A stretch of 56,983 nucleotides of DNA from an archaeon (GTDB taxonomy: Archaea > EX4484-52 > GLR71): assembly GCA_013138805.1 (NCBI GenBank), contig WTCA01000030.1, positions 1-56,983 on the forward strand, in the 5' to 3' direction. Both the position numbers and the translations under genes were made by a program. Shown here in pieces: positions 10,119-52,200 of the stretch. Each line of letters opens with the position of its first letter. Positions within the stretch are counted from its first letter, which is position 1. A model generated the notes under the pieces. It was given only the letters and a program-made list of their open reading frames with translations, searched no databases and had not been told where the DNA came from.

Positions 10119-10184
10119 AATGATTACCTTTCGAAGGTTTTATAACATTATTTGGGTTAAGGAGAGTATATATATATTTCGGTT

Positions 10185-17094: not shown

Positions 17095-17109
17095 ACAAAT
17101 CTCCTTAAA

Positions 17110-17853: not shown

Positions 17854-17865
17854 AATATGCACCGA

Positions 17866-18414: not shown

Positions 18415-18498
18415 AGCAATCTAAAATAAATTAGTCCTGAGTGCTTATATAATTTATGAGAAACAGGGTTTTAATTCCCGATTTTTATATAATATCCA

Positions 18499-19506
18499 CT
18501 ATAATTTTCGTGTATTTCCAGCATCTTTCCTGTAAATGAAATATGCAACGACCAGTATTATTATCAATATTATCCAGAACATATTATTTCCCCTAGCGAT
18601 ATCCAACCGGGAAGCTTCTACTTTTGGGATAATCTTTGGCTTCTCTATAGATAACATAACCTGTTTTGATGATGAATTTATGTTATAAAATACTGTTGAA
18701 TTTACAAGATAGTTATCAGGAGATATCTTATCAGAATTGAATCTGGCACTCAAGACTCCAATCTCATCAGGCGATACAGATACATATCCGGAACGTCCTG
18801 TATCAACCAATGTGCCGTTTTCATAATATATTGCTACATCCGGGCTATATGATGAGAATGTTGCAGTGCCTGTATTCTGAAAATATATATCAAGAATGAC
18901 ATCATTAGCCGAACTGCCCTGCATGATATCCAATACATTGCCGCTGACAACACAAACACCATCAACCTTAAATTTTACGGTGATTGCCACCAATGCGACT
19001 ATACTTACGGAGCTGCCTGAGTCTTTGCTGATATAAGGTGTTGGCGCTATCCTGAATGCATGATAACACGGTTCTGCATCATCAGGAATTTCCAAGACAA
19101 AATTTACTTTTTTCCAGTCCGATATGGTTCCGCCCTTAGTGTTCAATAAGACATTGGCGGGTTTGAGCACATAAGGATTATCTGGAAAATATACCCATAC
19201 TGAGCTGTCCACTTCTGAAACAAGATTCACTATATCTGAATTTGCAGGTTTTTTGAAAAAATCAAGATTTGCAGGCGAAGATGTTAATTTCACAACAATC
19301 TCATCAGGCGATGATGTCACAATAAAAAATGAGCCTACAACCTTTTCTCCCCTATCCAAAGTTCCAAGATCTATAACTAATGGGGAAACACCGACCTGAA
19401 ACTCTTTTGCAGATACAGGAGCTGTCAGGATGAAAGATATGAAGATATAAATCATTAAGATATAGCCGGCTGCGCAAAATTGTTTTTTTGAAAATGAGAA
19501 TATCAT
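18499..19506 (-). CDS. 335-aa type-I surface protein (signal peptide, two beta-sandwich domains, C-terminal TM)
   Basis: Signal GYILMIYIFISFILTAPVSA/KEF. Anchor MFWIILIIILVVAYFIYRKD. The ATG at 19504-19506 is preferred over the GTG at 19515. Confidence 0.65.
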   Translation of the reverse strand: MIFSFSKKQFCAAGYILMIYIFISFILTAPVSAKEFQVGVSPLVIDLGTLDRGEKVVGSFFIVTSSPDEIVVKLTSSPANLDFFKKPANSDIVNLVSEVDSSVWVYFPDNPYVLKPANVLLNTKGGTISDWKKVNFVLEIPDDAEPCYHAFRIAPTPYISKDSGSSVSIVALVAITVKFKVDGVCVVSGNVLDIMQGSSANDVILDIYFQNTGTATFSSYSPDVAIYYENGTLVDTGRSGYVSVSPDEIGVLSARFNSDKISPDNYLVNSTVFYNINSSSKQVMLSIEKPKIIPKVEASRLDIARGNNMFWIILIIILVVAYFIYRKDAGNTRKL

Positions 19507-19515
19507 TCCTATCAC

Positions 19516-25826: not shown

Positions 25827-25831
25827 TCAAA

Positions 25832-28123: not shown

Positions 28124-28207
28124 ATTATCAACCAATATTATATTTTCATTAAAGTCCTATTTATCTGTACATCATATCATAACATACTTATCATAACATA
28201 TTTTTTA

Positions 28208-34200: not shown

Positions 34201-37200
34201 CGTTATAGACATAATCAGACCCGTTAAGATACCAGAAATCAACACTATAACCTTCTACAGAAGCACCTGAATTATTATCTTTCACAAGACATTTGACATC
34301 AAAAGATCCAGGGTATGCCTGTTGGGATCCGTTGAGAGGCTCCCACCATATAACATCAACAAGACCGTTTATATTTATAGATATGTTATCAGTCCCTGTT
34401 ATATAATATGGTCTTGTCGCATTTGAAACCAGTGTTTTTGGCCCAGGAATCTGTGATACAAGCGGATATGTTGTGTTCTGACCTGTCGCAACAAAACCAG
34501 AATCTATATACCAGTCAACTGTTGCCGTGTCAACATAGCTGTTCTCATTTTCAATGTAAGATGTAAGATTCAAAATTTCTGCCTTGCTCCATGAACTTCC
34601 ATTTGCAGGCCCGGTTATGTTGATATATAAAAAACCGTATATACCTATTGTTGTCTGGTTTGTGATTGAGTCTTCAAGCCCTGCTTTTGTTGAGTTTATG
34701 TATACAACATAACCTTGCGGTGTGATGTTTTCAGGTGCGTCATAAGTGATGTAACAGTTTCCGTTCACATCAGTTGTGCAGTTGTCCATAAACCCTGTTG
34801 AATTGTAAAACCAAACATCTGCGTTTTCCGCCGGACCTATGAGGGCATCATATATTGTGACTGTGATATTTGTATCATACGGACTGAATGTATTGTTCCT
34901 GTATATGTCTGGATTGGACAGCACTATTTCTGTTATTACCGGTGACCTGTTTATCCTTACAGTAGTATTCTCATAATAAGTTGACGGCGTGTAATATAAT
35001 GAGTCATCGGAAGATATAGAACAGCTTATATTGTACCAGCCATAGTTCTCTGATGCTGTGGACCATATCCATACTGCGGTACCGTTTGAGTCTGTCAGGT
35101 TTGAATCCTGGAAAACATCATTCTTGTAGAAGCTGACATTATAGCCGGTTATATTTTCTGTTGTGTTGGCATCAATCACATTGCACTGCACATAAATATT
35201 GTATCCTGCAAGATAACTTGAAAGATTCAATGGCAAGATTGATGATATCATGCTCCAGCCATAGACATAGATGCCTGTCGTATTGGTGCCGATGTCATAA
35301 TCTGCGCGGGTCGCATTTACAGTTATGGTGTCAGGGCCTTTTGTATAATATATTGGGATGTTCCAGCTTGTGTCATATCCGGATCCTATCTGTATTGGTG
35401 TGCTGTTGTACCAGGACACAACTGCATCAAGAACAGGATTAGAACAGTCATCAGTCACAGTAGTGTTCAAAGATACTGTTGTGTTCCTGTTAAATATAAC
35501 ATTTTCCTGCGGATCAATTGGATTGGTGTATAGCTGCCCTATGACTGACAATGATACATTTGATGAGTTGATTATCTGGTAACTGGGGTCATCCACTGCA
35601 ATCTTCCATTTCTGCGCACCCACATCACTGTCACATTGCGGATCATAATCAATTCCGCAATAGCCGTCTGAGGATGAACATGACTCATTATAAGTGAAAA
35701 TATTTCCGTCTTTTGTAACCCATATTGTTGCATTTGTATCATTTTGATAGACTTCATAATCAGTATCATATATTCTTACATTAAGGAATGCAGTCGTCAC
35801 ACCGAGCCGTCGTACTGTACTGTTGCTTGCCGGATCTATTGAGATTGTGATATTATCATAATCAAGCGTGAAGTTATAGACTTCTGTCTCGCTGCTGAAA
35901 CCGAATACGCTTTCAGAGATTATCTTATAATAATTAAGACCTGACGGCGGTGTAAGGTAATCATTGGATGTGAACCTTTCATTGAAATATACCCACTGGT
36001 TTATAGGTGTTCCAACAAGCTGCCAGTTTACAAGATCCCATGAAGAATTATCAAAGCTTTTCCACAGTGATACATTGTTTGTTGCAAGATCAAGACTTGT
36101 AAGCCTTACGCTGAACTGATGATTCTCTCCCCAGCCGCCAAATTTGGGAGATACAGATACAAGTTCAAGTATAGGTGTCGTTCCAAGGAAGAACCTCTCA
36201 TCTCCTGAGGATTCATTATCTGCAAAAAACTCTTTTGATACATCTGCAGTTACATTGTACCATTTATATGGCTTGCTTGAAGAGTCCCATGTGCAGTTAT
36301 AGTCACCGCCGCTCTCATTCCATCCTGCATTGCTTTGCTTGTTACAAAAATACTCATTAGGAAAATTCAATAGAGCATATGATATTGTTACATTCTCAAC
36401 AGGACCGCAGTCATCAGACACTGTAGATATAAGAGGTATGAGGTCACCTCTCAAATATCCCTGCTCATATACATTTGTTATGTTGAGGAGAAGTGTTGAA
36501 TTCACAGACAGGTCATATTCTGTGGAATTCTTATCCTTATAGCAGACATCATTTACTATTCCTCCTTTCCATTTCTGAATGCCGACAGTATAATTACATT
36601 TCTGGCCGCCGTCCGGGAACTGCTGCATAAAGTAATATGCGATTGAACTGTCCAATGTAACTGTATCTTTTCCTATGTCCCATGATGAGGTATCATTCGC
36701 GTCAGTTGTCACCCAGAACCGTGCAGAAGTGCCTGTACCTACTGAGATATTACCCCTATCATAATCTAAAATATCCAACATCAATGTCGTGTTGTGGGTT
36801 CCGTTCCGCCAGACATAAGAATTGTCTCCTGTTGCGTATTGTATTGTCACATCATTTTTATCAATTGTGAAATTGTGAGGCGTTGTAGTGTTTACTTCTG
36901 CATGAGTATCGCTTGCCTCAAAATAATATTCCCAAGTGTCTATATTTGCACAATCAGGATTATTCCATGAAATAATTGCATATTCATTCTGTGGATTATA
37001 CAATGTTGTTGTGTTTTTTGGTGCGCCCCAAGCACCATCTGTATATTTTTTTGTATAAAGGTTTAAAGTGACATTGTCCCAATCCTCATCAGTCACATTG
37101 ACTGAAAAATAGAATGTTTCACCCCAGCCGCCAACATCTGTAATTGCAGTTTCATCTGTCAAATCCGGTAATGTCGTCACAAAGATATGATTTGCTTTAA

Positions 37201-40200
37201 GCAATGTGCCATTATTGTAATACTGCTCCCATGATATTATCTCTGTGTCGTACCATCTTGCTGCCATGTCGGTCGTGTTTCTTGTGCATTCATAATAACC
37301 ACCAACTATCTCTTCGCTAATACAGGAATAATTAGATACATTATCTTCATTATAAAAAGTGAAGCTGTTATTTATGTTTTCAAGGCCGAGATTACAGTCA
37401 TCAGTTATTGTAGGTGTTATTGTGCTGCTCAATGTGACATTCTCCCCTCTCAGATATTCAGAACTAAAAGGAGGATTCTCAATAGTATTTATAAGGTCTC
37501 CCATTATTGTTGTGTTATATTCTAAAGATAGATTTATTGCAGCATAACATGAATCTGTAACTCCTGCTTTCCATTTCTGCGGACCTATCTTATAAGTTGG
37601 AGAGGAACATCCCGGATTGAAATTGTAGTTTGCATAACCTGTGGAATTTGTCAATATGACAGTCCCAGTATCATAAGTCGGATTGTCATAGGTTGTCCAG
37701 AATGTCACGGATGAATCTGTCATCACTGGCATGCTTGCGTTGTCAAGATCAAGAACTCTTGCAGTAAACAATGCAGTCTGTGCACCTGACCGGTTCACGA
37801 CAGAATCATTGCCGAATATATATTCAATTGAGACAGTGTCTGCCGTAAGGTTCGGTCCGGACATTTGGCTTGTGTTGAACTTATTTGTGCCGTCATATAT
37901 CTGGAATTTGTACAGATTGTCTGTACCAATCTCTGCGCAGTCGAAATCCATGACTGATAGGGTGCAGTTTGCATCACCAGCAGGTGCGGTCTCTATGAAT
38001 GTGCTGTTCTTCAATATCCATAATGCTCCGTTGTCTGTGCTGACGAAAAGGTCGCAGGTAATGTTATCCTGCTGAGTGTCAGATATCTGGGCTTCATAAG
38101 TATATACACGGCCCCATCCTTCTACATCAGGAGATACTGTAAAATTTTCTACTATTGGCGGTGTATTGTTCAGGTATGTCCAATTAGAGAATATTGTTGA
38201 ATTGCTGTAATAATCTGTCTTGCTTGCATTAATCCTGAAACTCCAGTTTCCGCCCTGATGGAACAGTGTATCCCATGAGGAATTGTAATAGCCTATACTG
38301 TTGTTTGTTACAGGAGTTATATCTTCAAAGACAATATCCTGATATACTGCTTCATGAGTTATGGAAGCTTCTGACATCTGGACTGTGCAGTCATCATAGA
38401 TGCTTACATTCAGGTTTACAATAGCACCTACAAGTATGTTTGAGCCTTCTGCAGGATCTGCGATAGAGCTTTTCAACTGCCCTATTATGTCTGTATCCCT
38501 GTCAGATGAATTTGAATCCTTATAGCAGGCATCACCGTTTGAACCGCCTTTCCATTTATGTCCTCCTACAGAATAATTGCAGTCCGGGTTGAATGAATAA
38601 TACAGATATCCTGAAGAATCTGTCTGGTTCTGTGTGCCTAAATCATAAGAAGATCCGTCTGTTGTCACGAATATCTTTCCTGTTGCGTTAGGTATTGATG
38701 AACCTACATATACGTTGTGGTCTGCGTCAAATATCCTCACTGAGAAAACTTCGATATCATCCCCTTCACGACCTATCTGTGACAGGTCCCCCATGCCGCC
38801 ATAATATGTTATTGTATCATCCCTGATTATGTTGAATGTTCCTGATGTCTCATTTGTATAATTATAATTATCAGATGCGTTGAACTTGAAACCCCTTGTA
38901 CCTATATCACTGCATGAGAATCCGTGACCGCTAAAGCTGATAGTCTGTATGCTTCCACAATTTGTGCAGACTGTTGAATTAAGAAGTTCCCAGTCTCCTG
39001 TAAGATTGACCCAAAGGTAAACATTAACATTATCCTGATCCTCATCAAGCAGATTTACTTCAAATGTCCAGGATTCACCCCACCCATAATCTGATAAACC
39101 AACAGATGTAATGGTCGTAATAGAGGGATTGCTAATCTCTGGAACTGTCACAAGACGGAATGCACTGTCTTTCCTATAGATATCTGAAGAGTTATAATAT
39201 AATTTTGAAGCAGTAAAGTTTATGTCATAGTCACCTGTAAACCATCCTGTTGTGGATGCTGCAGGTATTGTGCAGTTGTAATAGCCGTCTGCCTCATCAT
39301 ATAATGTATTATCAGGAGGGCATGTGAAATATGGAATTGCTGACTGTTCAACTACAAACTCTGAGCTTGCACCAGGAACCAGACCGCAATCATCTGTAAC
39401 ATTACCCCTTATCAATATGTCATCAACACCACGAACCCTTGTGATGCCGTCAGGCTCTGTAAGGGTTGTCAATAACGGTATTGCAGTTATATTAAATTCA
39501 ATATCAGATGAGTTTTGCAGCTTATACCAGCTACCCCCTATTACGCTTGATGCTTTCCACATCTGCGGGCCGAGACTATATGTGCAATCAGGATCAAGAG
39601 TCACAAAGAAATAACCAGTATTGTTTGATATAGTATCCAAGGTCTCAAAAGAACTACCATCCTTTGTCACATAGAATCTTGTATTTATAGGTGATGTTAT
39701 CAACAGGTCTTTGTCATCATCATATACACTTACACTGAAAGTCACATTCGGATTGCTGTTTCCAGGCAGATCTGACCTGTTGACAATTGAATTGTTTCCT
39801 GAAAGTATCTCAATCCTAACATCATCAGCTTCAACTGTAAATGATACATTTGACGTCTCATATTCATCCCATGCATCGTCAGCTGTTACATTGAACTTGA
39901 ACTCCCAGTCGTCCATATCATTTCCGCTTATGAATTTTGCAGACAGGTTTACAGTTACATTTATTCCCTGCGCGGTTGTTGAGTTTTTAAATATCCATGT
40001 GCCGCTTGATGTTTTCTTTATCCAAAGCCTTACAGTCATAAGGTCATTATCCCTGTCTGTCGCATTTGTCGTGAAATAGAATGTCTCTCCCCAACCACCG
40101 GTACTTGGGTTTGGAGACGGCAGTGAAAGATATGGCAATGTCTCTATCCAAAATGAAGATATCCCATAAGCGTACTGGAATACTTCCGAGTCATTATTGT

Positions 40201-43200
40201 AGAATGACTGTGATGAGTTCACCTCAAAGTCATAGTATCCCGGCGGCATACCTGTGTTGTTGAATGTGCAGTTATAATATCCTGTAGACTCATTGTTGAT
40301 TATGCAGGTGTCTGAATATCCTGTCCTGAAATACCTGAAAGATACATTGCTCTCATTCATCACTTCTGCTACGCAGTCGCTTGTAACATTAGCTCTTAAA
40401 GTAACATTGTCATCAAGGAAATACTCAACACCCAAAGGCGATGCTAGAGAATTATATAGAGTTCCATACACTGTCAGATTATATTCGGTTGTGTTTTTCG
40501 GTGTATAACAGGAATCGTTCACTTCAGCATACCATTTCTGATCTCCTACATCATAGGAACAGGACGGTGTGAAATCATATGTCGCATTGCCGCCGGATGT
40601 TGTATTGAAACCTTCAAGAATATATGTTGTGCCGTCGGTTGTTATGTTGAAATATACATCTATATCTGGTGAGACAGGCATTCCTCTCACAGTGTCGTTG
40701 ATGTATACCTTAAGCTGCTGCATACCGTATGATCTGTTGACATCCTTATTGTTTCCGTCCATATATATTATCTTAATATCATCTATAGTCATGTTCGGTC
40801 CGCTCATATTTGTAGTGTTTATCGTGTTATAGCTGTCATCAAGCTCAAACTTGAAATAGTTGTCAGTGCCGATGTCACCGCAGTTGAAATCAGAGACTGT
40901 CAGGTTGCATACTGCAGGGCTTGCTAAAGTTGTCATGTTCCTGAAGATCCATGATGCACCGCCATTGGTTGTTGTATAAAGGCTGCAGTTGACTGTGTCT
41001 GCATCCGGATCTGTGAAATTTAAGCTGAATGTATATGTTGCACCCCATGCACTGGAATTTGGCGTCACATTAAGGTTTGAATAGGCTGGAGGATTGTTGA
41101 GAAGCTCAAAATATTCTGTCAATGTGTCAATTGCAGTATAATATGTGCTGTTTGATGCATTTGTTTTTATTGTCCAGTTTCCCGGCTCCTTTAATGTTGA
41201 ATCCCAGGTGCAGTTGTACCATCCTGCATCAGATCCGGTCTCATCATTTATAGGAGAACAGCTATACCATGAGGCGGATGGGCTTTGAAGCTCAATGCCT
41301 TTTGATTCGGCCTCTATCCTGCCTTCAACTGAACAATCGGTTGTCACATTGAATCGCATAAAAACTGGTGTTCCTGTACCATAGCTTGAACCGTTTACAG
41401 GTGATTCAACGCTTGTATATAATTTGCCATATGAATCAAAATATTCTGTGGGATATAAAGAATCCTTATAACAGACACTTCCTGATGTCCCTCCTTCCCA
41501 TGCATGCTCGCCTGTAGTGTAAGAGCAGTTTATGTCAAAATCATAACTAAGGTATCCCAATGCATCTGTCTGCAATGCGTATCCATCATCAAAACTGCTT
41601 AAGTTACTCCAGTTCACAGTGACCCAGATCTTACCATTAACACCGGATTCTACCGAAGTATATCCTCTATCTGTATCCAGTATCTGTGTCTTAAGAAGTA
41701 TTGTGGCGGTGCCGTTCCTGTCAACATTCTGGCCGCCTGTACTTACAGGTATCGCATCCACATCATCTTTCTCAATTGTCATTGTTGATGTGATATTATC
41801 AGTATAATTATAGTCATCAGATACATTGAACTTGTATTGCTTTACACCAAGATCCGCTGCACCTGCACAGGAAAATGTTTTTCCTGCAAAGGTTATTGTC
41901 GGATCGCCCTGAGACCATATCACAGAATCAAGAAGTTCCCATGAACCTGTACGGTTTATCCAAAGAGATACATTTGAACTGTCTCCGTCATTATCCATGA
42001 TATCTACTGTAAATGTCCAAAATTCACCCCAACCACCAATACTGCCACCCTGTGTCGATGTTGATGTCGGGTTTGACAAGACAGGCCTTGTGACCAGCCG
42101 GAATGCATTTTCCACCACAAAGACATTGGAATCGTTATAATATGTCTTATCTGCTTTTATTGTAATATTATATAATCCGACAGGCCAGGTATTATGGGTT
42201 GTATTTGCAATTGTGCAGTTATACCAGCCGTCAGTCTCGTCGCCGGCAGGGTAACATAATGCATATGTTGTTCCCCCCTGTACCACACTGATATTTACAT
42301 TGGCATCACTTACAGGACCGCAGTCATCTGTAACATTTCCTCGAAGAAGAATATTATCCACACCTTTTTCAAATGTAAGTCCGCCTGTGGGATAATCAAA
42401 CATGGCTACAAGAGGTGTTGTTGTTATGTTGAAATAAAATTCTGTTGAATTTGTTGAGTTGTATTCAAAATTATCAAGAAGACCTGATTTCCATTTCTGA
42501 GGCCCTACAGCATAGGTGCAGTCCGGCTTAAATGTGTATGTCTGATAACCTGTTATATTTGAATTAATATAGCTTGTCGGCAGGAAAGGGTATGGAATAT
42601 AATTGCTGAAAGTATCATTTGTCAGGTAAAACTTGCTTCTCTTAAATGGGATAATAGCGTCAGGATCCTTGTCAACATCCCATACTCTTGTGATTAATGT
42701 TATATTATAATCCGGGTCGTATGCCTGGGCTGACCTGTTCACTATACTGTTATTTCCGGATATATATTCTATTGAGACTGTATCTTTTTCAATATAAAAA
42801 GTCTTTTCAATAGTCTCGTTTGTATAGCCATCACCATCTGATGCTGTCACATTGAACTTATAATACCATGTCGTATCTGCATATACATTAGTAAATGTCT
42901 TTGGCGAGAAAGTTACATATTGATTGACACCTGATATTGTATTGTTTGTCAGGGAATTTGCGGGAACATATCCATCACTTTCATTACGGAACCATGCTTT
43001 TACTATCAAAGTATCAAGATCATAGTCTGTCGCATTGACAGTGAAATAATGTTTTTCTCCCCATCCGCCAGATGACGGAGTAACATCCGATGCAGCAAGA
43101 GTTGGCCTGGTCTCAATCCAGAATGATTCTGTTCCTTCAGAATAGACATCTGTAGTTATCTCGGTGATATAGAACGGCTGTGTTGAGTTCATAGTTATGT

Positions 43201-46200
43201 TATATCCTCTTGGTTCTTTTCCTGCCGTGTCAAAAGTGCAGTTATAATAGCCTGTTGATTCATTGTATATCTCGGTCGTGCAGGCATATTGTGTTTCTGT
43301 ATACTGAGAGGTCATTGTGAAATTGACATAAGTTGTGTTCATCGTCTCCTGAGAACTGCAGTCGCTTGTTATGTTTGCACGGATTGTCACATTCTCCTCG
43401 CCGCGAAGATATTTTTCTCCGGAAGGAGAGGTCACAAGATTTGTCATCTGCCCATAGATTGTGATTGTATAATTCTCTGTTGTATTTGAATAGAGATAAT
43501 TGTCATCAGTTATACCTGCCAACCACAACTGATTTTCTGTTTCATAATATGGTGTACATGTCGGCGAAAATATATATGATGCGTGTCCTGTTGAGTTTGT
43601 CTGTAACAGGGAACCGCTGTCATAAGTTGTGCCGTCTGTTGTTATCCAGAAAGTCACATTGGAACTATTTATATAAGACTTGTTTTCAAGGTCATAAGCC
43701 CGCACTATAAGAGTTTCGCTTCCTGCTGACCTGTTGACAGATGTATCATTTGCAGAATAGAATGTCACATTGACTGACGGTTTTGTCACTGTCGGTCCGC
43801 TGAAGACTGTTGTGTTGAATGTGTTTGATGATTCAGCATCTTCTATCTGGAATTTATATGATGCAGTTCCCATATCCTGCGGAGTGAAATCCCATACGAG
43901 AATGCTGCAGTTACCAGTACCGCCCATGACTATGCTTTGACCTTTATCAACCCAGACGCCTGTCGTGTTCGTGAACAGTGTACAGGTCACATTGTCTGAT
44001 TCTGGATCGTCAACAGAGATGTTGAATGTGAAATTCCTGCTCCATCCACCGCTTGATGGTGTGACTGACTCATTATCATAAGTGGTGTTAAGATTCTCAA
44101 GCCAGAATCTGTCAGTCCACCATGTCGTGTTTGGATAGTAATCGGATAGAGTGGATGTCATGTTGACTGTATAGTTGCCTTCCAACTTGCCTGTGGAATC
44201 CCAGGTGCAGTTGTATATTCCTGTACTTTCATCATTCACAGGACTGCACTGGTATGTGCTGCTACCTGAATGCGTAAGGTTAAGAGCTATTGATGCGCCT
44301 GCCTGATTTCCTTCAGCAGGACAGTCTGTACCTGTTGAAATATTTACAAAGATGCTGTCAGTCACATTGAAGACAGAATCCTGGACAGGCAGGTATAAAC
44401 TGTTCTTTAGCTGGCCTACAATCGCAAACTGCCTTATAACGGTTAGGTTTTTGTCTTTATAACAGATGTTATCTGTTGTGCCTATAAGCCAATACTGATC
44501 AGTTGATGCAGAATATCCGCAATCCGGATTAAAAGAATAATTCACATAACCATCTGCATCTGTAACTGTCGTGTTTCCAGAGTCATACGAGATTTCATTG
44601 TATGTTTTCCAGACTGTAGCATTTATACTTGCACCAACTATTGAGCCTAAATCTGTGTCATTTATTCTTACCTTGAAATATTCTGAATCTGCATCTTCAC
44701 GATCAATTGATACACCGGCTCCAGAAACATAGATTACTTCAATATCATCTTTTTCAAGAGTGATGTTCTTTATCACAGACTCATTTGTAAAGCCGAAGCT
44801 GTCTGTCACATTGAATTTATAATAAAGGTAAGGACCCTGAGTTAAATCAGAACAGTCAAAGATCTTGTTGAAAGTTATATTTATCCAGGCCACCGCATTA
44901 AACTTCTCTTCAGAGTCTACAAAATACCATGGTCCTGCTGCGTTATAAGCTTTCCAGAATGATATGTTATCTGTGTCATCCGGCTCAATATCCCTGAACT
45001 CTACCTTGAAGGTATAATTATATCCCCATCCTTCCAGTTCAACATCTACAAATGTCTCTCCCAGTTCCGGAGACTCACCAAGCCGTAAAGCGTCTTCCAC
45101 AAATATGCTTGACATATCATAATATGGCTTTGTTGAGTTCATAGTTATGTTATGGATGCCAAGGAATGCAACACTGCTGTCCCAGGTGCAGTTATATGTT
45201 CCATTGCCAAGATCAGTGAAAGATGAACATACATAAGAATTTGCTCCGGAGGTTATATCAAACTTTATGGTATCAGACTCATTGACATATGTTCCTGTCG
45301 TGGCGGTGCAATCATCGCTTACAGTACCGTACATTGTGATATATGTGCCTTTCTGGTATAAAGCAGTAGGTACAGGAACCTCAAGATTGTTTGAGAGTGT
45401 ACCGTTTATGTCAAGCTCATATAATGTTGAATTCTCATCAAAATAATTGGTACCCCCAATGATTCCTGCTTTCCAGTCCTGTTTTCCTGTAAGGTACAAT
45501 GGAGCTGAACAGCCAGGATTGAAAGTTATGTTAAGATTGCCGGACGGGTCTGTAGTGTCTGCCAAAGAAGTACCCCATATCCCTGTAGTTGTGCCGTTTG
45601 TGGTCACCCAGAAATATCCCTGCATACCCGCACCTAAAGCAGAATCTGTATAATTATCAAATGCCTGTACTGTAAGTACTGTTGAATTGGTGCCTACACG
45701 ATTTATATCTGTACTGTTTCCTAAAACATAATTTATGTATATGCTTCTTTTTGTTACATTGAAATCATAGACCGGCTGCTCATCTGAAAGACTGTCAGTA
45801 TCGCTTGCATTAATCTTCCAGTACCAGGTATCTATGTCTCCAGCTGCTGAATATAATCTTGTCAAGGTCTTTGTCGTGTTTATGCAGTCTGAACAGGATG
45901 TCTGGTCTGCAAGAGTCCATGGGCCTGTCGCAGAACCCATAGATTCCCAGAGATATATATCAACCGTGTCATCATCATCTGTAACATTCACAGTGAATGT
46001 TACCTGTGATTTTGCGGGATTATTTCCCCATACAACTGAAGATTTGTCAGCAGAGGCACCGGAAAGAACAGGATTTATCTGATGGAAAAATGAGTTTAAA
46101 TAGGTCTTGAACAATGGGTTAAGATATTGTCTTGTGGAATTGAGTGTGATGTTATACCAGCCGCCCGGTGCACCTGTGACATTCCATGTGCAGTTATAAT

Positions 46201-49200
46201 AACCGCTTCCTTCATTCACTACAGAACATGCAGTATAATAAGTATCATGCGACAGGTTAAATGAGACTGTTGCATCATCAACAAGATCGGTGACATCACA
46301 TTCCTGTGTCAGGTTTATCCTCACTGTGACATTATCATCATCAAAGAAATCTTCACCTGACGGAGAGACCAGAGTATCGTTCATCTCACCTATGACATAT
46401 ACTATCAATGGCTGTGTAATGTTGGTGTCAAAATAACATGAATCGTCTTTTATGCCGCCGGTCCAGTTCTGAGGACCTATTGAATATTTGGGTGAACAGG
46501 AAGGCTTAAAGATATAATTCATATGGCCTGTTGAATTTGTCTGGTTGAAATAACCACCATCATATGTTGTATCATTATAAGATACCCAGAATGTGCCGTT
46601 TCTTCCCTGTGGCAGTGTTGGAGTGCTTACATTGTCTGAATCAAACACCTGCAATATGAAATGTGTGGTTCCCGAACCTGTCCTGTTGACAGATGTCGCA
46701 TTACCGCCGCCTGCAAAATATGAGACTGTCACATTATCTTTTTCCACTGTGAAATTACTGCTTGAAAGCTCTGTGTCATTCTCATAGTCTGTCGCATTGA
46801 ACTTGTAATACCATACCTGCTGGTCTGAACAGGAAAAACCTTCATAGCTGAAATTCAGCTGGTTCCAGCCATTGCATGAAGTGCAGTTCTTGGAATCCTC
46901 AAATACCCAGGTTGAATTGTCTGACGATATCCAGAAAGAGACATTGACAGTATCGTAATCTTTATCATATACTTCTACTGAAAAATCAAATATTGCACCC
47001 CATCCGTCTGCTTCCTGCAACATGGTCTGATTTGTAAGGTTAGGTACATTGTTTATCGGCGGTATCACTCTAAAAGAATCAGCCTCTGTAATTGTGCCGT
47101 TATTATAATAAGATACATTATATGCTTTTGCAATGACATCGTATCTCCCTACACCTGTGTCTGTTGTGTTCCATTCACAGGAGTAGTTTCCTGACCCAAG
47201 ATCAATCACAGCAGTACAATATGATGCAAAACCGGTGTCTGTGTTATTCAAGGTAAGATTTAATGATGCTCCTGCAATGCTCTGGTTACATTCATCAAGA
47301 ACAGTTATGTTTATTGTCACATTCTCAATGCTGTTCTGATACTGTTCAAGATCTTTAGGGAATGTTACATTAGGCCTTAAATCACCTTGAATATATATAG
47401 TATAGTTTGATGATACCTGATCAGAATAACATGTATCTCCGTCTGTGTATGTCTGCCATTTCTGCTCACCTACCGAATATGAGCAGTCAGGCAGGAAGTT
47501 GAAATTTGCATATCCTGATGAGTTTGTGGTGTTTGAATTAAATGTTGTGAAATTATCTGCATTGTCGTTTGTTACATTCAGGTAGACTGTTGCCTGAGGA
47601 TTGCCTGCAAGAAGGTTTCTGACTGTATCGTTCACAGTATGGGCAAGAAGGACTGAGACCTGTCCAAGCGTGTCTGACCTGTTGACATATGATGCATTGC
47701 CTATATATGACTGGCCAAGAAGAATGTCATCTGTGGTCAATGTATAGTCATGGAATGTGGTTGTCGCATTGCCTTCATAGTATGAGTCAGTCGCATTGAA
47801 CTTGTAAAACCATGTGCTTATGTCTGAACATGTGTAATTTTTGAAAATATTCACCTGTGTGTCTACCGGGCCTGATAGGAATGTGTTGTTCACAACACTG
47901 TAAGGTCCGCCACTTGCGCCTTTGCTATGCCACAGAGTAAGGTTGACACCATTATAATGGCTTACAATTATTGAGAAATTCCGCTCAGAACCCCAACCGG
48001 AATCTGCTGAATTTACAGTTTCATCTGAAAGATATATCGGTGCTGTCAGGAAAAATGCATCCACTCTTGAATCATTGTCCGGATGGTTATATGGCTTTTC
48101 AGCATACATTGTCACATTATAATATCCACCACTAATACCCACAGTATCAAAATTACAGGAGTATACACCGCCGCCTTCATCTGTCGCATAGCCTGCTCCC
48201 GGGCATCTGAAAGTGTTTGCATTTCTGGTCAGGTTGAAATAAACAGATGCGCCTGTCACATCAGTTCCGCAGTCATCTGAAAGAGTTCCGTTCACAGGTA
48301 TGATATCATCCTGAGTATAATTTGTCGATGTGTCAGGGAATGTCTGGGTTGCTGCAAGCGTTCCGTATATGTTGACATTTAATGTGAAAAAGCCTTCAGT
48401 ATCATTTGTCTTGAAATAGTCGCTTGATGTGTTCACTTTCCAGTCCTGCTGGCCTGCAACATAATCGCATCCTGGATTAAAGTCCAGATAATAATGTGTC
48501 GTGTTTTTTGTGTCTGTTGTCTCTTCGCGCCAGAATGATGCTGCTGTATCATTTGTTATCCAGAACTGCACCTCATCAGGCGATGAGGATGAGAGATTAG
48601 TTGTGTATGTATTATTGTCATCATCATATATTCTTAAAGATAAATTTGCGCTGCCTGCGGTCCTGTTGATGTCAACTGCTACAGGTACGACATCTGAAAA
48701 AGATATGTCATCCTTTTCGATGGTGAATGAGCCTGTCTGAAGCGATGTATTTATGTTTCCGGATATATCCGATGCGTTGAAAAGATAGTACCAGTCATCA
48801 ACTTCATCCTGTGTGAATGTCCTGTTGAACACTGTCTGGTTATCCTTGCAGTCATAACATGTCCAATTTTCATACAGGTTCCAGGAACCTGCGCCTTTCT
48901 TAAGATACAGATATACTATGACAGTATTATTATCCTCATCTGTCACATTTATTGTGAAATTGACAGGTGATGCTGACCAGCCATCAGATAATGGAGATAC
49001 ATCCACATAATCTGATTGAGGCACTGTGGACAGATAGAATGCGTTGACAAGAATATCTGTACTGTTCACATAAACACCGAATTCGGTGCCTTCAGAATAA
49101 GATATCATCGTCACATTATACCATCCCAACGGTGCGTTTCCCGGCGAGTTCCATGAATCTGTGGCAAGAGATGCTATTACAGAATAGTTTGTGGCACCGT

Positions 49201-52200
49201 TTGACAAGACATATTCTGTCCCGTATTTTGCGCTGTCAGATTTCACAGCATTGCAGTCATCTTTTATAGTGCCGTCAAGAGGTACTGCACTGCCACGGGT
49301 GTAGTTTACACTGCCGTCCGGAGAAGACATAGATGATGCGGACAGGTTTCCTAAAAGAATGAAAGGGATTGAACCGTAAGGTGAAGGTATTGTGGAATTG
49401 TCCTTATAGTATGACGAGCCTGAAAGACCTGTGATGTAATAGTTCTGCCCAAGCGAATATGATTTTGCGTCATCACACCATTCAGCAGTTGTCATTTCAT
49501 ACAGCATGTATCCTGTACTATTGACAACAGGGCTTTGGGGATAATAAGTGTTGAATGTTGTGTTGCTCCCGAACATAGATATCCGGAAATAACCTTTACC
49601 GAATTCAAGAATTTCAGGAGCTGTACCGTTGTCTGTATCATTGAATCTGGTTGTGAAGTTCAATGCAGAGCTTCGCATGACTGTCGCGTTCCATTGAGGT
49701 GTCTCATTATATACTGCAACATTGTCTTTCTCAACAGTATAGCTATGTCCGGAAAGTTCGGTTGAACCGTCAGCGTTTGTTGCGTTGAACTTGAAGTCCC
49801 AGGTTGAGATGTTTGTATAATTATAATCATAAGTGAAGTTAGCCTGTGTCCATGATACACATGAGGGACAAACCCAGCTGTCTATCAATACATAGCTTCC
49901 TGCAGAGACCTTATGCCAGGCATAGACTGTGACATCTCTTCCAAACCTATCTCTTACCATTGCCGAGAAATTGAATTCCTCACCCCAGCCGCCGATTGTC
50001 AATGCGTCATTACCATCTATATATAATGTGGAGTTATCCAGAAGAGGTGTGTAATCATAGACTTTTACATTGAAATAAAGGTTTTGAGATTCCCGGAAAA
50101 GTTTTCCTGTCACCCAGGTATAGCTTAATTTATCTACGCTTGCATTGACATAAGGATCTGATGTAGCGTCTGCGTAAGATGATATGCTTATATCTCTTGC
50201 AGAGTCTACAAATGATGCCCGGTCTGATGTATCAATTGAATAGTTGCTCCAGAGTAAATTGTATGTGTCAGCAAATGTGTAGTTCTGCCATACTGTATGA
50301 ATCATGCCTGAATCATCTGATATGTTGACTGATGCCTGGCCGATTGTAAGATTGTAGCCTGTCCAGTTATATCTTATATAAAAGTCAATCCCAGTCAGCA
50401 TCTCATATCTTGCGTCGGCAGGTTTTGTGAAACCATAATTTTCTGTTGCTGAACATGATGAAGAGGATTCACAGCCAATAGCTGTGTCATTTGATATTGT
50501 CGTGTATGCTGTAGTATTCCTTATACCTTCTGCAACAAAGATATATGAACCTTCAGCTGTGCAGTTAGCTGTGAAATTTACATATGATGATGCATAAGGG
50601 CTTATGTCTGATAACTGCCAGGTTATCTTTCGTGAGGTATCATTCCAGGTGCCGGAATCATAGACCTGTGTGATGTTGCATTCCCCCGGGATATCAAGAG
50701 TCACATTCCAGTCACTGCTGGTTGAGTTGTCGCCGATGTTTGTGACTTTCAGAGAATAGTTGTAAGAGACATTCAACTGTGAACTTCTTGGCTCAACCCA
50801 GGGATATGCAGGCTGCTGGAGTGTCTCAATATTAAATTCAAGATGGGACTCTTCGGTGTAATTGAATGTCCGGACAGGGTGCGTATCATATTCAACAAAG
50901 TTCTTATTTTCCCAGGTCGTGTTATGATATAGTGTACCTGCCTGACTTGTGCTGACCGGGGATTTTGCCTGGTATGTAAGAACTGCATATTTATTTACAG
51001 GTATTGTTCCAAGCTCCCAGGTGACGATATTGTTTATAAGATCTGTTGTCGCTGAGATAAGTTCTATGTCTGAACCATACTCGTTTGTCATGATACCCGG
51101 GTTTGCAGGGGTCCAGCCGGTCGATATTGTCTCTTTTATTATGGTGCTTCCTGAAGATGCTGTGCATCCCTTGTTGTATATGGTCAGCTGTGAATCAAAG
51201 ACTGTATCAGTCCCTATGTTTGACGGTGTCTCTCTTGTGATTTCAAGTATGGCTATTGAATTGCTCTCATTTATCATAGAGGTAGAATTTCTTGTCTTTT
51301 CAGAGACAGGATAGGTATAGGCAACGGTTGCATTGATATAGACGATTTCTGCAGCTGAGGAGGAGGAGGTAAGGTTAAAGCTGACAGTATAATTGCCGGG
51401 GGATGTCGTGTTTACCAATTGATATGCCGGCGAATAGCTCCATCCTGCCGGTGTTTCAAGAGATACATTATATTCTATTGTATCTGTGAATGGATTCGTG
51501 ATTGTGACATTGTACTGCTCAGTTGTCTGGTTGCACATCCAGTCAAGAACACGGCTTGAGACTGATACATTCTTGAATATGAAAGGTTCTGTACGGTCGT
51601 ATGAAGTTGAGCCGTTGACAAGATATGCGTTGAGATCATAGTCATCGGAAAGCCATGAAGATGTGTTGATATCTGTGATGTTAGCAAGATAGATTGAATC
51701 GGCAGAAATGCTTATGGACTGGGAAGATGAATTTATTATGGCGCCGGTGCTGTTGGTTATGTTAAGCCATAAAGTTCCTTCAAACTGATTGTTTTGGGAA
51801 TTGGCTATCCTTACAGATACATTGAAAAAACCGTCTCCTGTCTCCATCCCTGTTGTCTCTGTGCTGTTGATTGATGCCTGTAAGTTTTGGATATGGACAG
51901 TCTCATTATAATATGCCTGAAGGTTCATGGCAGTCAGATTGATGCCGTTTGAGCCTATATTTGTTATGTTGAATGTGCAGTAGCCGGTGCCGTTTGCGTT
52001 AAGCTGTCGTTCCAGAACCGGAATCCTGTCTGTGCTGTCTGAAGTCAGGTTGATAGTGTAGCTGTGCAATATGTCAGTCCAGACTGTGCCATTGTAGGAC
52101 AGGACTCTTAACATTACATCTTTTTGTCCTGCTGTGACATTTGTATAATTGATATTAAGATATGCAGCCCGGTAATCTCCTGAGTCGCAGGCAAAATATG

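What the first reader, a model, noticed from the sequence alone, without database searches (positions are those of the whole stretch)
35200..50130. Fifteen consecutive ~990-nt three-domain supermodules with invariant GWG and eight-cysteine pattern
Each module has three parts. Domain A is ..(G/E)GWG(E)..F.F.V.V.D.D.D.V.V.LW...W......C..C...........F.C.D...W.YKFN.TD. Domain B is F.IEKD.V.V.Y..GN.S.VNR......L.VRV.D.D......F(W)VT.......TN.TGYA.Y.F.P.C.Y.VG.Q.W.AG...D.CY. Domain C is ..P.G......D.V.L.G.VTDDC......A.V.F.......Y.C......E..G.YNCTW......G.YN.T(I/M).S.K..YN. The anchor spacing is very regular (954-1031 nt) over 15 kb, yet nucleotide identity between neighbours is low. This indicates old, selectively maintained modules rather than recent slippage. 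I cannot assign A, B or C to named Pfam families by eye, so they may be new domain families. The conserved Cys and the CxxC in domain A suggest disulfides or metal sites in an extracellular rod.
Basis: seen in the sequence. Interest (0 to 1): 0.7.

Follow-up and report, generated by a model that had tools for sequence, protein, structure and literature searches.

The report
Stalk of a giant DPANN surface protein
The 15 repeats are real: they are triple beta-sandwich modules, apparently stapled by disulfides, that form the glycosylated stalk of a giant membrane-anchored surface protein ending in an ATPase, a protein class already described in tiny symbiotic (DPANN) archaea and thought to mediate host contact.

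Summary
Window 35186-50026 encodes 15 tandem ~330-aa A-B-C modules, spaced 954-1032 nt, with 27% aa and 43% nt identity. They lie inside one ORF of more than 9,552 aa (28208-56983) that is open at the window end. "Invariant GWG and eight Cys" is overstated: only the Trp and two Cys are invariant, and Cys come and go in pairs.

A, B and C are Ig-like beta-sandwiches (AlphaFold pLDDT 92) with no Pfam family above threshold. Across 417 modules from 148 proteins, cysteines covary as four pairs. Two pairs link different domains (A-B phi 0.98, B-C phi 0.83), which suggests disulfide staples. CxxC is in only about 20% of modules, so a metal site is unlikely.

The ectodomain has three times the expected N-glycosylation sequons. 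It is followed by one TM helix and a cytoplasmic HerA/VirB4-type ATPase. That is the architecture published for nanohaloarchaeal "SPEARE" giant proteins.

The module profile finds 717 protein clusters; the ten looked up are from several DPANN lineages. Module order is conserved between homologues. An orthologue gives dN/dS 0.17.

Verdict: a new member of a known kind, with an apparently undescribed ordered, stapled three-domain module. Function (host contact or secretion stalk) is inferred.

The parts
28208..56983 (-). One giant ORF. It has 9,552 codons from the first listed start, plus 39 further in-frame codons up to the window edge. The stop codon is at 28208-28210 and the N-terminus lies outside the window.
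   Evidence: ORF list. Translation shows no upstream stop. An orthologous ORF exists in L001, 87-94% nt identical; its only breaks are 100-N scaffold gaps.
35186..50026 (-). Fifteen consecutive A-B-C supermodules, M1-M15 (aa 2281-7227). The coordinates are M1 49019-50026, M2 48035-49018, M3 47042-48034, M4 46067-47041, M5 45068-46066, M6 44084-45067, M7 43103-44083, M8 42071-43102, M9 41087-42070, M10 40133-41086, M11 39122-40132, M12 38156-39121, M13 37166-38155, M14 36173-37165 and M15 35186-36172.
   Evidence: Alignment and identities. Domain HMM hits. AlphaFold2 of M4 gives pLDDT 92.2 and pTM 0.77, with three all-beta domains. There is a three-module higher-order period: M6/M9/M12 are 33-37% identical, M7/M10/M13 36-41% and M8/M11 43%.
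52637..56866 (-). Five further units of the same domains nearer the N-terminus (aa 1-1410): ABC, ABC, AB, ABC, AB.
   Evidence: Own domain HMMs, E-values 1e-11 to 1e-27.
50027..52636 (-). Non-ABC 'X' region (aa 1411-2280), beta-rich and faintly NPCBM_assoc-like. It separates the two module blocks.
   Evidence: No significant A/B/C hits. Faint NPCBM_assoc match. A homologous stretch followed by an M1-like module is visible in P0127 and twice in P0131.
56581..56983 (-). A copy of the X-to-M1 junction (84% nt identity to 49717-50119). This is the only DNA-level repeat inside the gene, and the window ends within it.
   Evidence: blastn self-comparison. Protein aa 1-95 is nearly identical to aa 2290-2385.
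29417..35185 (-). Membrane-proximal ectodomain (aa 7228-9150). It contains C-like and other beta-sandwich domains, NPCBM_assoc-like domains, a Cys-rich motif (CGNAICESAYGESNSICPADC, 30215-30277), a Gly/Asp-rich linker and two beta domains.
   Evidence: The same C-terminal series is present in P0128, P0137, P0143, P0144 and P0227 and in the ~725-aa short family members.
29345..29401 (-). Single transmembrane segment (aa 9156-9174, LFMSWVTYIVLLILIPGIY).
   Evidence: It is the only Kyte-Doolittle window above 1.6 in 9,552 aa. Sequon density drops from 6.0 to 0.27 per 100 aa across it.
28211..29326 (-). Cytoplasmic HerA-FtsK/VirB4-superfamily P-loop ATPase plus a conserved helical C-terminal tail. 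Walker A (GGTGSGKS) is at 29135-29158.
   Evidence: Pfam DUF87 scores 34.7 bits against a cut-off of 23.2. A PDB profile search hits HerA at 1.8e-10. More than 432 DPANN relatives were found. It aligns end to end with nanohaloarchaeal P0290, P0293 and P0298.
25832..28135 (-). Conserved downstream partner 1: a 767-aa cytoplasmic coiled-coil and low-complexity protein.
   Evidence: No TM segment, 3 sequons. Weak SMC/JetC-like coiled-coil hits. tblastn relatives lie directly downstream of the ATPase gene in 77 of 81 loci.
19932..25826 (-). Conserved downstream partner 2: a 1,964-aa glycoprotein with an N-terminal signal/anchor and a C-terminal TM segment.
   Evidence: Pfam NPCBM_assoc (two stretches) and MG2. 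It has 125 sequons and TM-like segments at aa 11-29 and 1859-1877. Relatives lie downstream in 74 of 81 loci.

Best explanation
The 15 repeats are the central stalk of one giant (more than 9,590 aa), heavily N-glycosylated surface protein of a DPANN (Nanobdellati, Aenigmatarchaeota-like) archaeon. The protein has the architecture published for nanohaloarchaeal SPEARE or giant surface proteins. That architecture is a huge ectodomain of tandem Ig-like domains, one transmembrane helix, and a cytoplasmic HerA/VirB4-type ATPase with a helical tail.

The building block here is a three-domain unit, not a single Ig domain. The unit consists of beta-sandwich domains A, B and C. Covarying cysteine pairs suggest it is locked together by one near-universal B-C disulfide, an optional A-B disulfide and small local disulfides.

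The modules are position-specific paralogues whose order is conserved among DPANN lineages. Copy number changes in blocks of three modules.

Shown here: the repeats, their folds, the membrane topology, the ATPase family, purifying selection, the distribution, the collinear order and the cysteine covariation.

Inferred: the staples are real disulfides. They and the glycan coat make a stiff, protease-resistant stalk that holds distal binding or enzymatic domains far from the small cell. Because ATPases of this superfamily typically work as hexamers, several chains may bundle at the membrane into a host-contact or secretion structure, together with the two conserved downstream gene products.
For: Repeats and domains.

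Folds: the M4 model has pLDDT 92.2 and pTM 0.77 and is all-beta. Foldseek top hits are MG/Ig arrays at E about 1e-10. Domain A alone has pLDDT 93.7 and a generic Ig/Fn3-like fold.

Topology: 549 sequons against 183 +/- 11 expected outside, 1 against 1.5 inside, and one hydrophobic segment.

ATPase: Pfam DUF87 above cut-off; HerA structures at E 1e-10.

Same architecture as published giants: PMC10266531 section 11 and PMC6642349. The latter already noted relatives of the cytoplasmic part in Aenigmarchaeota, Woesearchaeota, Micrarchaeota and Altiarchaeales. The window's C-terminal ~600 aa aligns at 35-37% identity, E 1e-128 to 1e-136, with nanohaloarchaeal proteins including AQV86_02330, which is listed as a SPEARE protein.

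Selection: dN/dS is 0.17 in the modules and 0.08 in the ATPase, against orthologue L001.

Distribution: 717 representative clusters match the whole three-domain profile, 347 of them at E<1e-30. The ten looked up are from Micrarchaeia, Aenigmatarchaeota, Haiyanarchaeum and Anstonellales. Of 45 species-representative loci with 10 kb of upstream DNA, 42 carry A+B+C hits, and in 42 one ORF runs through to the ATPase.

Collinearity: 53% of 339 adjacent module pairs follow the window's order, against about 7% by chance.

Cysteine pairs over 417 modules: C71-C198 has phi 0.98 (239 both, 173 neither, 5 discordant). C180-C244 has phi 0.83 (387, 21, 9). C266-C279 has phi 0.95. C34-C62 has phi 0.90. Every window module has an even number of these Cys.
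Against: - No coordinates were available, so no S-S distance was measured. The inter-domain disulfides rest on covariation and parity alone.
- The organism probably lives in anoxic habitats, where extracellular disulfide formation is not guaranteed.
- The N-terminus, with its signal peptide and any distal adhesive or enzymatic domains, is outside the window.
- I could not compare the modules with the actual nanohaloarchaeal giants (NAR1_1133, SVXNc_0300), only with short relatives of their cytoplasmic part.
- The laminin-G domain said to be present in all SPEARE ectodomains was not found in the window.
- Hexamerisation, bundling and host contact follow from family knowledge and the literature's hypotheses. 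Nothing here tests them.
- There is no expression evidence for this gene.
- The 80 loci examined are those closest to the window's ATPase, so 42 of 45 overstates the frequency in the family as a whole.
Confidence: 0.72

Rival explanations
1. A generic cell-envelope or S-layer-like scaffold. The array is a structural coat or spacer of the DPANN cell itself, with no role in host contact or transport.
For: The ectodomain is glycan-rich and made of beta-sandwiches, like archaeal S-layer glycoproteins. The conserved neighbour of 1,964 aa is also a membrane-anchored glycoprotein. No recognisable adhesin, lectin or enzyme domain lies within the window.
Against: Covalent fusion to a conserved cytoplasmic HerA/VirB4-type ATPase is not a feature of S-layer proteins. 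Short family members of about 725 aa keep the ATPase with almost no ectodomain, so the ATPase-linked function is the core. The published work on the homologous class favours host interaction.
Confidence: 0.12
2. A type IV-secretion-like 'straw' (Reva et al. 2023). The Ig-like stalks form a conduit, and the ATPase pumps effectors or DNA between symbiont and host.
For: The architecture is the same as that of the proteins for which this was proposed. The ATPase has weak similarity to TraC/VirB4 and to the DNA-translocating CedD. ATPases of this superfamily are pumping hexamers (established knowledge of the HerA-FtsK superfamily). A three-gene cassette is conserved.
Against: This is a sub-case of the best explanation, not an exclusive alternative. 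TraC scores 18.9 bits against a cut-off of 567, and no PF03135 domain is found. The downstream gene here is a coiled-coil protein without a Walker A motif, not a second VirB4/TraG ATPase as in nanohaloarchaea. Only one TM helix per chain is present, and no channel-forming component is identified. Nothing shows that beta-sandwich stalks enclose a lumen.
Confidence: 0.25
3. The repeats are ordinary members of known Ig-like Pfam families (Big_2, PKD, Cadherin, Big_7) in an ordinary adhesin, with no special cysteine pattern.
For: All three domains have common beta-sandwich folds. C gives faint Big_7 hits and B faint PITM1-3 and Big_1 hits.
Against: No Pfam or NCBIfam model reaches its curated cut-off on any A, B or C domain. 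The PDB sequence profile search finds nothing. The three domains are conserved as one unit in 717 clusters, with best stretches spanning positions 2-319 of the 320-position profile. Strongly covarying Cys pairs link different domains.
Confidence: 0.1
4. The CxxC and other Cys form metal-binding sites rather than disulfides.
For: CxxC is a classic metal-ligand or redox motif. It is present in M1, M4 and M12.
Against: C53+C56 occurs in only 85 of 417 modules. In 61 others the partner is at +5. In most modules both are absent. Cys always appear and disappear two at a time, and modules have 2, 4, 6 or 8 of them. No conserved His or third and fourth ligand column exists among the positions that are at least 80% conserved. 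The location is extracellular.
Confidence: 0.04
5. Assembly artefact or recent slippage. The array is inflated by mis-assembly of a few repeats.
For: The window ends inside a 404-nt duplicated junction. Giant repetitive genes are prone to mis-assembly.
Against: Apart from that junction, blastn detects no DNA-level similarity between any two modules, so there is nothing for an assembler to collapse or expand. An independent assembly (L001) is collinear over M10-M15 and onwards. The module order is reproduced in many unrelated assemblies.
Confidence: 0.02

Closest known systems
SPEARE or giant membrane-anchored surface proteins of Nanohaloarchaeota (Ca. Nanohaloarchaeum antarcticus NAR1_1133, 5,998 aa; Ca. 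Nanopetramus SG9, up to 8,553 aa; Ca. Nanohalococcus SVXNc_0300, 9,409 aa). Sources: Hamm et al. 2019 (PMC6642349) and Reva et al. 2023 (PMC10266531).
   Same: - Giant size.
- A mostly extracytoplasmic chain of tandem Ig-like domains.
- A single TM helix near the C-terminus.
- A conserved cytoplasmic HerA/VirB4-like ATPase with a helical tail.
- A DPANN host organism.
- The cytoplasmic plus membrane-proximal part is homologous to AQV86_02330 of SG9 (35% identity over 605 aa).
   Different: - A different phylum (Aenigmatarchaeota-like).
- The stalk is built from an ordered series of three-domain A-B-C modules with covarying Cys pairs. The papers describe about 75 single ~100-aa Ig-like domains and do not mention such modules. 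I could not test whether the nanohaloarchaeal giants contain them.
- No laminin-G, WD40 or protease domain lies within the window, although the N-terminus is missing.
- The downstream gene is a coiled-coil protein rather than a second VirB4/TraG ATPase.
Short (~625-730 aa) DPANN 'DUF87/DUF853' membrane ATPases (for example P0050, P0070, P0290)
   Same: The C-terminal ~640 aa is shared. It comprises two beta domains, a TM helix, the ATPase and the tail. Identity is 47.5% to P0050. The long forms of about 725 aa also keep a Cys-rich motif; the ~625-aa nanohaloarchaeal forms (for example P0298) do not show it. This C-terminal portion is the conserved core of the family.
   Different: They lack the giant ectodomain. 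In the window protein more than 8,800 aa, including 20 A-B(-C) units, precede the Cys-rich motif (the N-terminus is outside the window).
Macroglobulin (MG) domain arrays of alpha-2-macroglobulin and complement C3/C5
   Same: They are the best structural matches to the three-domain module: consecutive Fn3-like beta-sandwiches, Foldseek E about 1e-10. The neighbouring 1,964-aa gene has a Pfam MG2 hit.
   Different: Sequence identity is 8-13% and global TM-score 0.2-0.4. There is no thioester motif and no TED, CUB or bait region. The resemblance is in fold only.
Giant tandem-Ig proteins with super-repeats (titin) and bacterial giant adhesins (Apilactobacillus Giant1-5, PMC12863079; Omnitrophota giant proteins, bioRxiv 10.1101/2023.11.21.568195)
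   Same: Long arrays of beta-sandwich domains. Identity between neighbouring domains is low. Higher-order super-repeats occur (here three domains per module and three modules per block).
   Different: There is no sequence relationship. The organism is archaeal and the ectodomain is rich in N-glycosylation sequons. It is anchored by a C-terminal TM helix fused to an ATPase. Module order is position-specific and conserved across lineages.

Membership tests
SPEARE-like DPANN giant membrane-anchored proteins | A very large, mostly extracytoplasmic chain made of tandem Ig-like or adhesion-type domains | tested here: met
   More than 9,150 aa lie before the TM segment. There are 20 A-B(-C) units plus other beta domains. 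The folds are beta-sandwiches. Sequons are enriched three-fold.
SPEARE-like DPANN giant membrane-anchored proteins | A single TM helix near the C-terminus, with the C-terminal region in the cytoplasm | tested here: met
   There is one hydrophobic segment, at aa 9156-9174. Sequon density is 6.0 per 100 aa before it and 0.27 after it.
SPEARE-like DPANN giant membrane-anchored proteins | A conserved cytoplasmic P-loop ATPase (VirB4/TraG-like in Reva 2023; HerA-FtsK superfamily), homologous to that of named family members | tested here: met
   Pfam DUF87 is above cut-off. HerA structures match at E 1e-10. Identity to AQV86_02330 of SG9 (P0298) is 35% over 605 aa, E 3e-128, and to Ca. Nanohalococcus occultus P0290 37%. 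It was not compared with the giant members themselves.
SPEARE-like DPANN giant membrane-anchored proteins | An N-terminal Sec signal peptide | not testable with these tools
   The ORF runs off the window end. Homologues P0125, P0126, P0132, P0137 and P0140 begin with a hydrophobic N-terminal segment.
SPEARE-like DPANN giant membrane-anchored proteins | At least one laminin-G domain in the ectodomain (Hamm et al. 2019) | tested here: inconclusive
   There is no Laminin_G hit in the 9,552 aa in view, but the N-terminal part is missing. The homologue P0140 is annotated DUF2341; reading that as LamG-like rests on my recollection and was not tested.
SPEARE-like DPANN giant membrane-anchored proteins | A terminal coiled-coil after the ATPase | not tested
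   A conserved tail (..YD.ELELNLA..K.K.G.FKMAETYIES..) is visible in the alignment. No coiled-coil predictor was run.
Named Pfam Ig-like families (Big_1, Big_2, Big_7, PKD, Cadherin, MG2, PITM1-3) | A score at or above the family's curated gathering threshold | tested here: not met
   Best scores are Big_7 19.6 bits (cut-off 24.1) on C, PITM1-3 16.9-23.9 bits (cut-off 27.7) on B, and Big_1 16.6 bits (cut-off 34.9). Nothing was found on A. NCBIfam gave nothing either.
Ig-like / Fn3-like beta-sandwich fold class | A seven-to-nine-stranded two-sheet beta-sandwich | tested here: met
   DSSP of confident AlphaFold2 models. Foldseek probability is 1.0 to MG, Ig and Fn3-like domains.
Alpha-2-macroglobulin / complement thioester proteins | A thioester motif (CGEQ) and a thioester domain | tested here: not met
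   No C[GA]E[QN] motif occurs in the giant protein or in the 1,964-aa neighbour. No TED or A2M Pfam hits were found.
Type IV secretion VirB4/TraC ATPases | A score above the model cut-off, and the N-terminal CagE/TrbE/VirB domain | tested here: not met
   TIGR02746 TraC-F-type scores 18.9 bits against 567. No PF03135 hit was found. The relationship is at superfamily level only.
HerA DNA-repair helicase (HerA-NurA) | Equivalog-level similarity and a NurA/Mre11/Rad50 neighbourhood | tested here: not met
   HerA_Thermprot scores 40.8 bits against 800. None of the neighbouring ORFs scanned against Pfam (the ten downstream of the giant gene and seven at the left end of the window) gave a NurA, Mre11 or Rad50 hit. 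This protein is membrane-anchored.
Anti-phage HerA systems (Sir2-HerA, DUF4297-HerA and others) | A HerA partnered with a defence effector gene | tested here: not met
   PADLOC HerA matches only partially, at 3e-15. The partners are a coiled-coil protein and a surface glycoprotein. The cassette is conserved next to housekeeping genes.

The most novel reading that the evidence does not exclude
The A-B-C unit may be a distinct, previously unnamed building block: three beta-sandwiches covalently stapled to each other by inter-domain disulfides. DPANN giant proteins would then be assembled from an ancient, fixed, position-specific series of such units (M1 to M15), with length tuned by adding or removing three-module blocks. 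On this reading the stalk is an ordered structure of defined length and register, for example a six-chain bundle set by the hexameric ATPase that spans the symbiont-host gap, and not a generic string of Ig domains. With its two conserved partner genes it would define a DPANN-wide cell-contact apparatus that has so far been noticed only in nanohaloarchaea.
Probability: 0.4. Interest if true: 0.65.

Novelty: new member of a known kind. Interest (0 to 1): 0.5.

Why it matters
All cultivated DPANN archaea are tiny cells that depend on direct contact with a host, and the contact machinery is largely unknown. Giant ATPase-anchored surface proteins are the leading candidates, but they have been described only in nanohaloarchaea and only as "about 75 Ig-like domains".

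This window shows that the same kind of protein in an Aenigmatarchaeota-like organism has a precise internal grammar. The unit is three domains with covarying cysteine staples. Module order is conserved in at least four other DPANN lineages. Expansion happens in blocks of three modules. Two partner genes are conserved downstream.

This yields usable tools and testable predictions. The tools are an HMM that recovers 717 protein clusters currently annotated as hypothetical, and a well-predicted 325-aa module suitable for expression. The predictions concern disulfide mapping, mechanical stiffness and stalk length compared with the symbiont-host gap seen in cryo-ET.

It is not a new kind of system. 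Its function remains inferred.

Tried and rejected
- **Pfam, NCBIfam and PADLOC** on the whole protein, on single domains and on neighbours. Nothing above cut-off in the modules.
- **PDB sequence-profile search with the module.** Only spurious ribosomal protein L23 matches at E about 0.5.
- **Word-indexed homologue search with one module.** It found only four fragments, which at first suggested rarity. The exhaustive profile search overturned that.
- **The search for related loci with the module alignment.** I used the ATPase alignment instead.
- **dN/dS between modules.** Not attempted, because they are saturated at 43% nt identity. I used the orthologue L001 instead.
- **Thioester / alpha-2-macroglobulin reading**, suggested by the Foldseek top hits. 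Rejected: no motif and no TED.
- **Defence-system HerA reading.** Rejected on gene context.
- **Metal-site reading of CxxC.** Rejected on frequency and pairing.
- **Mis-assembly.** Rejected.
- **tRNA scan of the window.** None found.
- **Literature.** Searches for a description of this module or of an Aenigmarchaeota giant protein found only the two nanohaloarchaeal papers and the Omnitrophota giant-gene preprint. The preprint has no hits for the terms DPANN or HerA.
- **Not possible here.** I could not obtain model coordinates, so I measured no Cys-Cys distances. I could not obtain the sequences of NAR1_1133 or SVXNc_0300.

Full report
**1. What is there**

The flagged interval lies on the minus strand inside a single reading frame. 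The ORF tool lists it as 28208..56866, 9,552 aa. The 39 codons between 56866 and the window end contain no stop, so the gene continues beyond the window and the protein has more than 9,590 residues.

Trp-centred anchors (GWG, GWS, AWG, VWG) recur at aa 2293 to 6911.

HMMs built from the three parts recover A, B and C in strict order in every unit, with E-values from 1e-22 to 1e-41. They also find five further units (ABC, ABC, AB, ABC, AB) in aa 1-1410. These are separated from the main block by an 870-aa region that is not A/B/C. Twenty shuffles of the protein give no hit.

Modules average 27% amino-acid identity (range 20-43%) and 43% codon-aligned nucleotide identity. blastn sees no similarity between any two modules.

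There is a higher-order period of three modules. M6/M9/M12 are 33-37% identical, M7/M10/M13 36-41% and M8/M11 43%.

**2. Corrections to the observation**

Only W14, R120, D134, C182 and C248 (M4 numbering) are invariant in the window's complete modules. The motif is GWG in 11 of 15 modules.

The eight-cysteine pattern is not invariant. Modules carry 2, 4, 6 or 8 of the key Cys. CxxC occurs in three of the 15 modules (M1, M4, M12).

**3. What the domains are**

AlphaFold2 on M4, using the 18 window modules as its alignment, gives pLDDT 92.2 and pTM 0.77, with three all-beta domains. The high pTM indicates that the model is confident about how the domains sit relative to each other.

Foldseek against the PDB returns arrays of macroglobulin, Ig and Fn3-type sandwiches: A2ML1, C3, C5, CD109 and mastigoneme. 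E-values are about 1e-10 but identity is only 8-13%.

Domain A alone (pLDDT 93.7) is a seven-stranded sandwich. Its best matches are accessory domains of GH3 and GH2 enzymes, CTLA-4 and Asf1, at E >= 2e-3. That is a generic fold with no close solved relative.

No Pfam or NCBIfam model reaches its cut-off on A, B or C. A PDB profile search by sequence finds nothing. hhalign suggests that A and B are distant homologues (probability 90%), B-C is weaker (46%) and A-C is not supported.

The domains are therefore unmodelled in Pfam and NCBIfam but belong to an ordinary fold class.

**4. Cysteine pairing**

I extracted 417 full modules from 148 proteins (the window protein and homologues) and aligned them to the module HMM.

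| Pair (HMM positions) | Domains | phi | Both / neither / discordant |
|---|---|---|---|
| C71-C198 | A-B | 0.98 | 239 / 173 / 5 |
| C180-C244 | B-C | 0.83 | 387 / 21 / 9 |
| C266-C279 | within C | 0.95 | 317 / 92 / 8 |
| C34-C62 | within A | 0.90 | 63 / 343 / 11 |

C34-C62 is typical of the M7/M10/M13 module type. C53 pairs with C56 (85 modules) or C58 (61 modules).

Every window module has an even number of these Cys.

The simplest reading is four disulfides, two of which staple neighbouring domains together. That would explain why the three domains are inherited as one unit. This is inference, because I had no coordinates to measure distances.

The low frequency and variable spacing of the CxxC argue against a metal site.

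**5. The rest of the protein and its topology**

After M15 come further beta domains, then a Cys-rich motif (CGNAICESAYGESNSICPADC), a Gly/Asp-rich linker and two beta domains. Next is the only hydrophobic segment in the protein (aa 9156-9174), followed by a 370-aa C-terminal domain.

That C-terminal domain hits Pfam DUF87 (HerA central domain) above cut-off, with Walker A GGTGSGKS. It matches HerA structures at E 1e-10. Its matches to HerA, CedD and TraC equivalog models are far below their cut-offs. It is thus a separate family within the HerA-FtsK/VirB4 superfamily.

The ectodomain has 549 N-x-S/T sequons against 183 +/- 11 expected from its composition. The tail has 1 against 1.5. This fits a heavily N-glycosylated exterior and a cytoplasmic ATPase.

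**6. Context and distribution**

The left part of the window carries housekeeping genes: a LeuA-like gene, Sua5, PyrI, PyrB and a PIN-ATPase-KH gene. The locus is therefore chromosomal.

The closest relatives of the C-terminal part are annotated Aenigmarchaeota or Aenigmatarchaeota. The nearest species representative is 'Nanobdellati archaeon KA24', at 92% identity. Nanobdellati is the DPANN kingdom.

A related strain (L001) has the same gene, collinear and 87-94% identical in DNA. Its only ORF breaks are 100-N scaffold gaps. dN/dS against it is 0.17 over M10-M15, 0.17 over the proximal ectodomain and 0.08 over the ATPase.

The word-indexed search found only four module fragments. The exhaustive profile search found 717 representative clusters, 347 of them at E<1e-30. 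Many of these are proteins of 3,000-6,900 aa with up to 17 matched stretches, and the best stretches span the whole three-domain profile. The ten looked up come from Micrarchaeia, Aenigmatarchaeota, Haiyanarchaeum and Anstonellales. All are annotated 'hypothetical' or 'DUF87-containing'.

At least 513 loci in species-representative genomes encode the ATPase. Of the 45 best loci that have 10 kb of upstream DNA, 42 carry A+B+C hits, and in 42 one ORF runs from the edge of the fetched DNA through the ATPase. Short family members of about 725 aa consist only of the signal peptide, Cys-rich motif, two beta domains, TM helix and ATPase.

**7. Module order is conserved**

I assigned each of 517 homologue modules to its best-matching window module. 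The resulting strings include M1-M2-M3-M4-M5-M6-M7 (P0134) and M3 to M10 (P0125, Micrarchaeia). P0128, P0143 and P0144 show M11-M12-M13-M14-M15 followed by the C-terminal region.

Of 339 adjacent pairs, 53% follow the window's order, against about 7% by chance. The figure is 73% if the three-module register is allowed. Median identity to the best module is 35%, higher than the 27% among the window's own modules.

The array is therefore an ancient, ordered series of paralogues, and copy number varies in three-module blocks.

**8. Comparison with what is known**

Hamm et al. 2019 (PMC6642349) described nanohaloarchaeal 'SPEARE' proteins of up to 8,553 aa. They are mostly extracytoplasmic, with a TM helix near the C-terminus and a conserved cytoplasmic part. 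The authors noted relatives of that part in Woesearchaeota, Aenigmarchaeota, Micrarchaeota and Altiarchaeales, and showed by proteomics that the protein is made.

Reva et al. 2023 (PMC10266531) re-analysed these proteins together with a 9,409-aa protein. They describe a Sec signal, about 75 Ig-like domains, a TM helix, a VirB4/TraG-like ATPase and a coiled coil. They proposed a role in host binding and effector secretion.

The window protein has this architecture. Its last ~600 aa align end to end with nanohaloarchaeal family members, including AQV86_02330. It is therefore a member of a known kind.

I found no description of the three-domain module, its cysteine pairs, the conserved module order or the cassette described below. 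I could not test whether the nanohaloarchaeal giants carry the same modules.

**9. Mechanism**

Shown:
- a glycan-rich stalk of beta-sandwiches under purifying selection;
- anchoring by one TM helix to a P-loop ATPase;
- conservation together with two downstream genes.

Inferred:
- Disulfide staples and glycans make each module a rigid, protease-resistant unit.
- Low identity between neighbouring modules is what one expects of tandem beta-sandwich arrays that must avoid misfolding with each other. This is established for titin-like proteins (my own knowledge).
- Because HerA, FtsK and VirB4 ATPases act as hexamers (family knowledge), several chains may emerge together and form a bundle of defined register. 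That would account for position-specific module identities.
- The distal, unseen N-terminus would carry the binding or enzymatic functions, as in homologues with subtilase plus RCC1-like regions or DUF2341-annotated regions.
- Whether the ATPase pumps a substrate, as in the 'straw' model, or serves assembly is open.

**10. Verdict**

The object is a new member of the SPEARE-like class of DPANN giant surface proteins, with module-level features that appear undescribed. Interest is moderate.

Noticed in passing
window 19932-28135 (minus strand); loci L001-L081: There is a conserved three-gene cassette. The 767-aa coiled-coil and low-complexity cytoplasmic protein and the 1,964-aa signal-plus-C-terminal-TM glycoprotein (NPCBM_assoc, MG2) lie directly downstream of the giant/ATPase gene. 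They have tblastn relatives in 77 and 74 of 81 DPANN loci respectively. In nanohaloarchaea the downstream gene is reported to be a second VirB4/TraG ATPase instead.
   Followed up: partly
window 56581-56983 vs 49717-50119: The only DNA-level repeat in the gene is a 404-nt stretch at 84% identity. It covers the junction from the non-ABC 'X' region into an M1-type module. The window ends inside it, so a second X region probably lies upstream, and the repeat may be why the contig stops here.
   Followed up: partly
window 50027-52636 (aa 1411-2280): An 870-aa region that is not A/B/C splits the module array. A homologous region followed by an M1-like 'GWGEKFNFSV..RDRFGRDV' module occurs in P0127 (Haiyanarchaeum) and twice in P0131. 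This suggests a still larger repeat unit of about 2,290 aa.
   Followed up: no
window 30215-30277 (aa 8864-8884): The Cys-rich motif CGNAICESAYGESNSICPADC lies just before the Gly/Asp-rich linker. Close copies are present in P0128, P0137, P0143, P0144 and P0227. A variant (C..A..CCWCTS....CQ.CPCP) sits right after the signal peptide of the ~725-aa short family members. Its function is unknown.
   Followed up: no
window 34500-35260 (aa ~7200-7600): After M15 come several ~105-aa units that match domain C only weakly (E 0.004-0.006) and start with 'YGWS'-type strands. The same series follows M15 in P0128, P0143 and P0144.
   Followed up: no
window 50001-56000: GC skew on the plus strand is +0.11 to +0.15 over the N-terminal third of the gene, against -0.07 to +0.03 over the 15-module block. 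Composition therefore differs within one gene.
   Followed up: no
window 9234-19515 (minus strand): A run of further ORFs has N-terminal hydrophobic segments and no confident Pfam family. Examples are an 831-aa ORF with 50 sequons and faint Big_13/Big_3_3 hits, and an 813-aa ORF with a CarboxypepD_reg-like stretch. They look like additional surface proteins. Only a few have relatives in the fetched loci.
   Followed up: partly
window 1-8286: A housekeeping block contains a LeuA/homocitrate-synthase-like gene (cut by the window start), Sua5/YrdC, PyrI, PyrB, a DnaJ-domain protein and a PIN + secretion-type ATPase + KH protein. It shows the locus is chromosomal.
   Followed up: partly
L001 5646-5745, 9801-9900, 11793-11892, 13518-13617: The public scaffold that carries the orthologous gene has four 100-N gaps. 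Its gene caller therefore reported only a 591-aa 'DUF87' protein plus small spurious minus-strand genes. Giant genes of this family are probably under-called in databases for the same reason.
   Followed up: yes
module HMM positions 82, 118, 203, 278, 292 (for example FNAT, NRS, YNCT, YNxT in window modules): Five N-glycosylation sequons are each conserved in 52-63% of 417 modules, and modules carry about 8 sequons on average. This suggests position-specific glycans on every module.
   Followed up: partly
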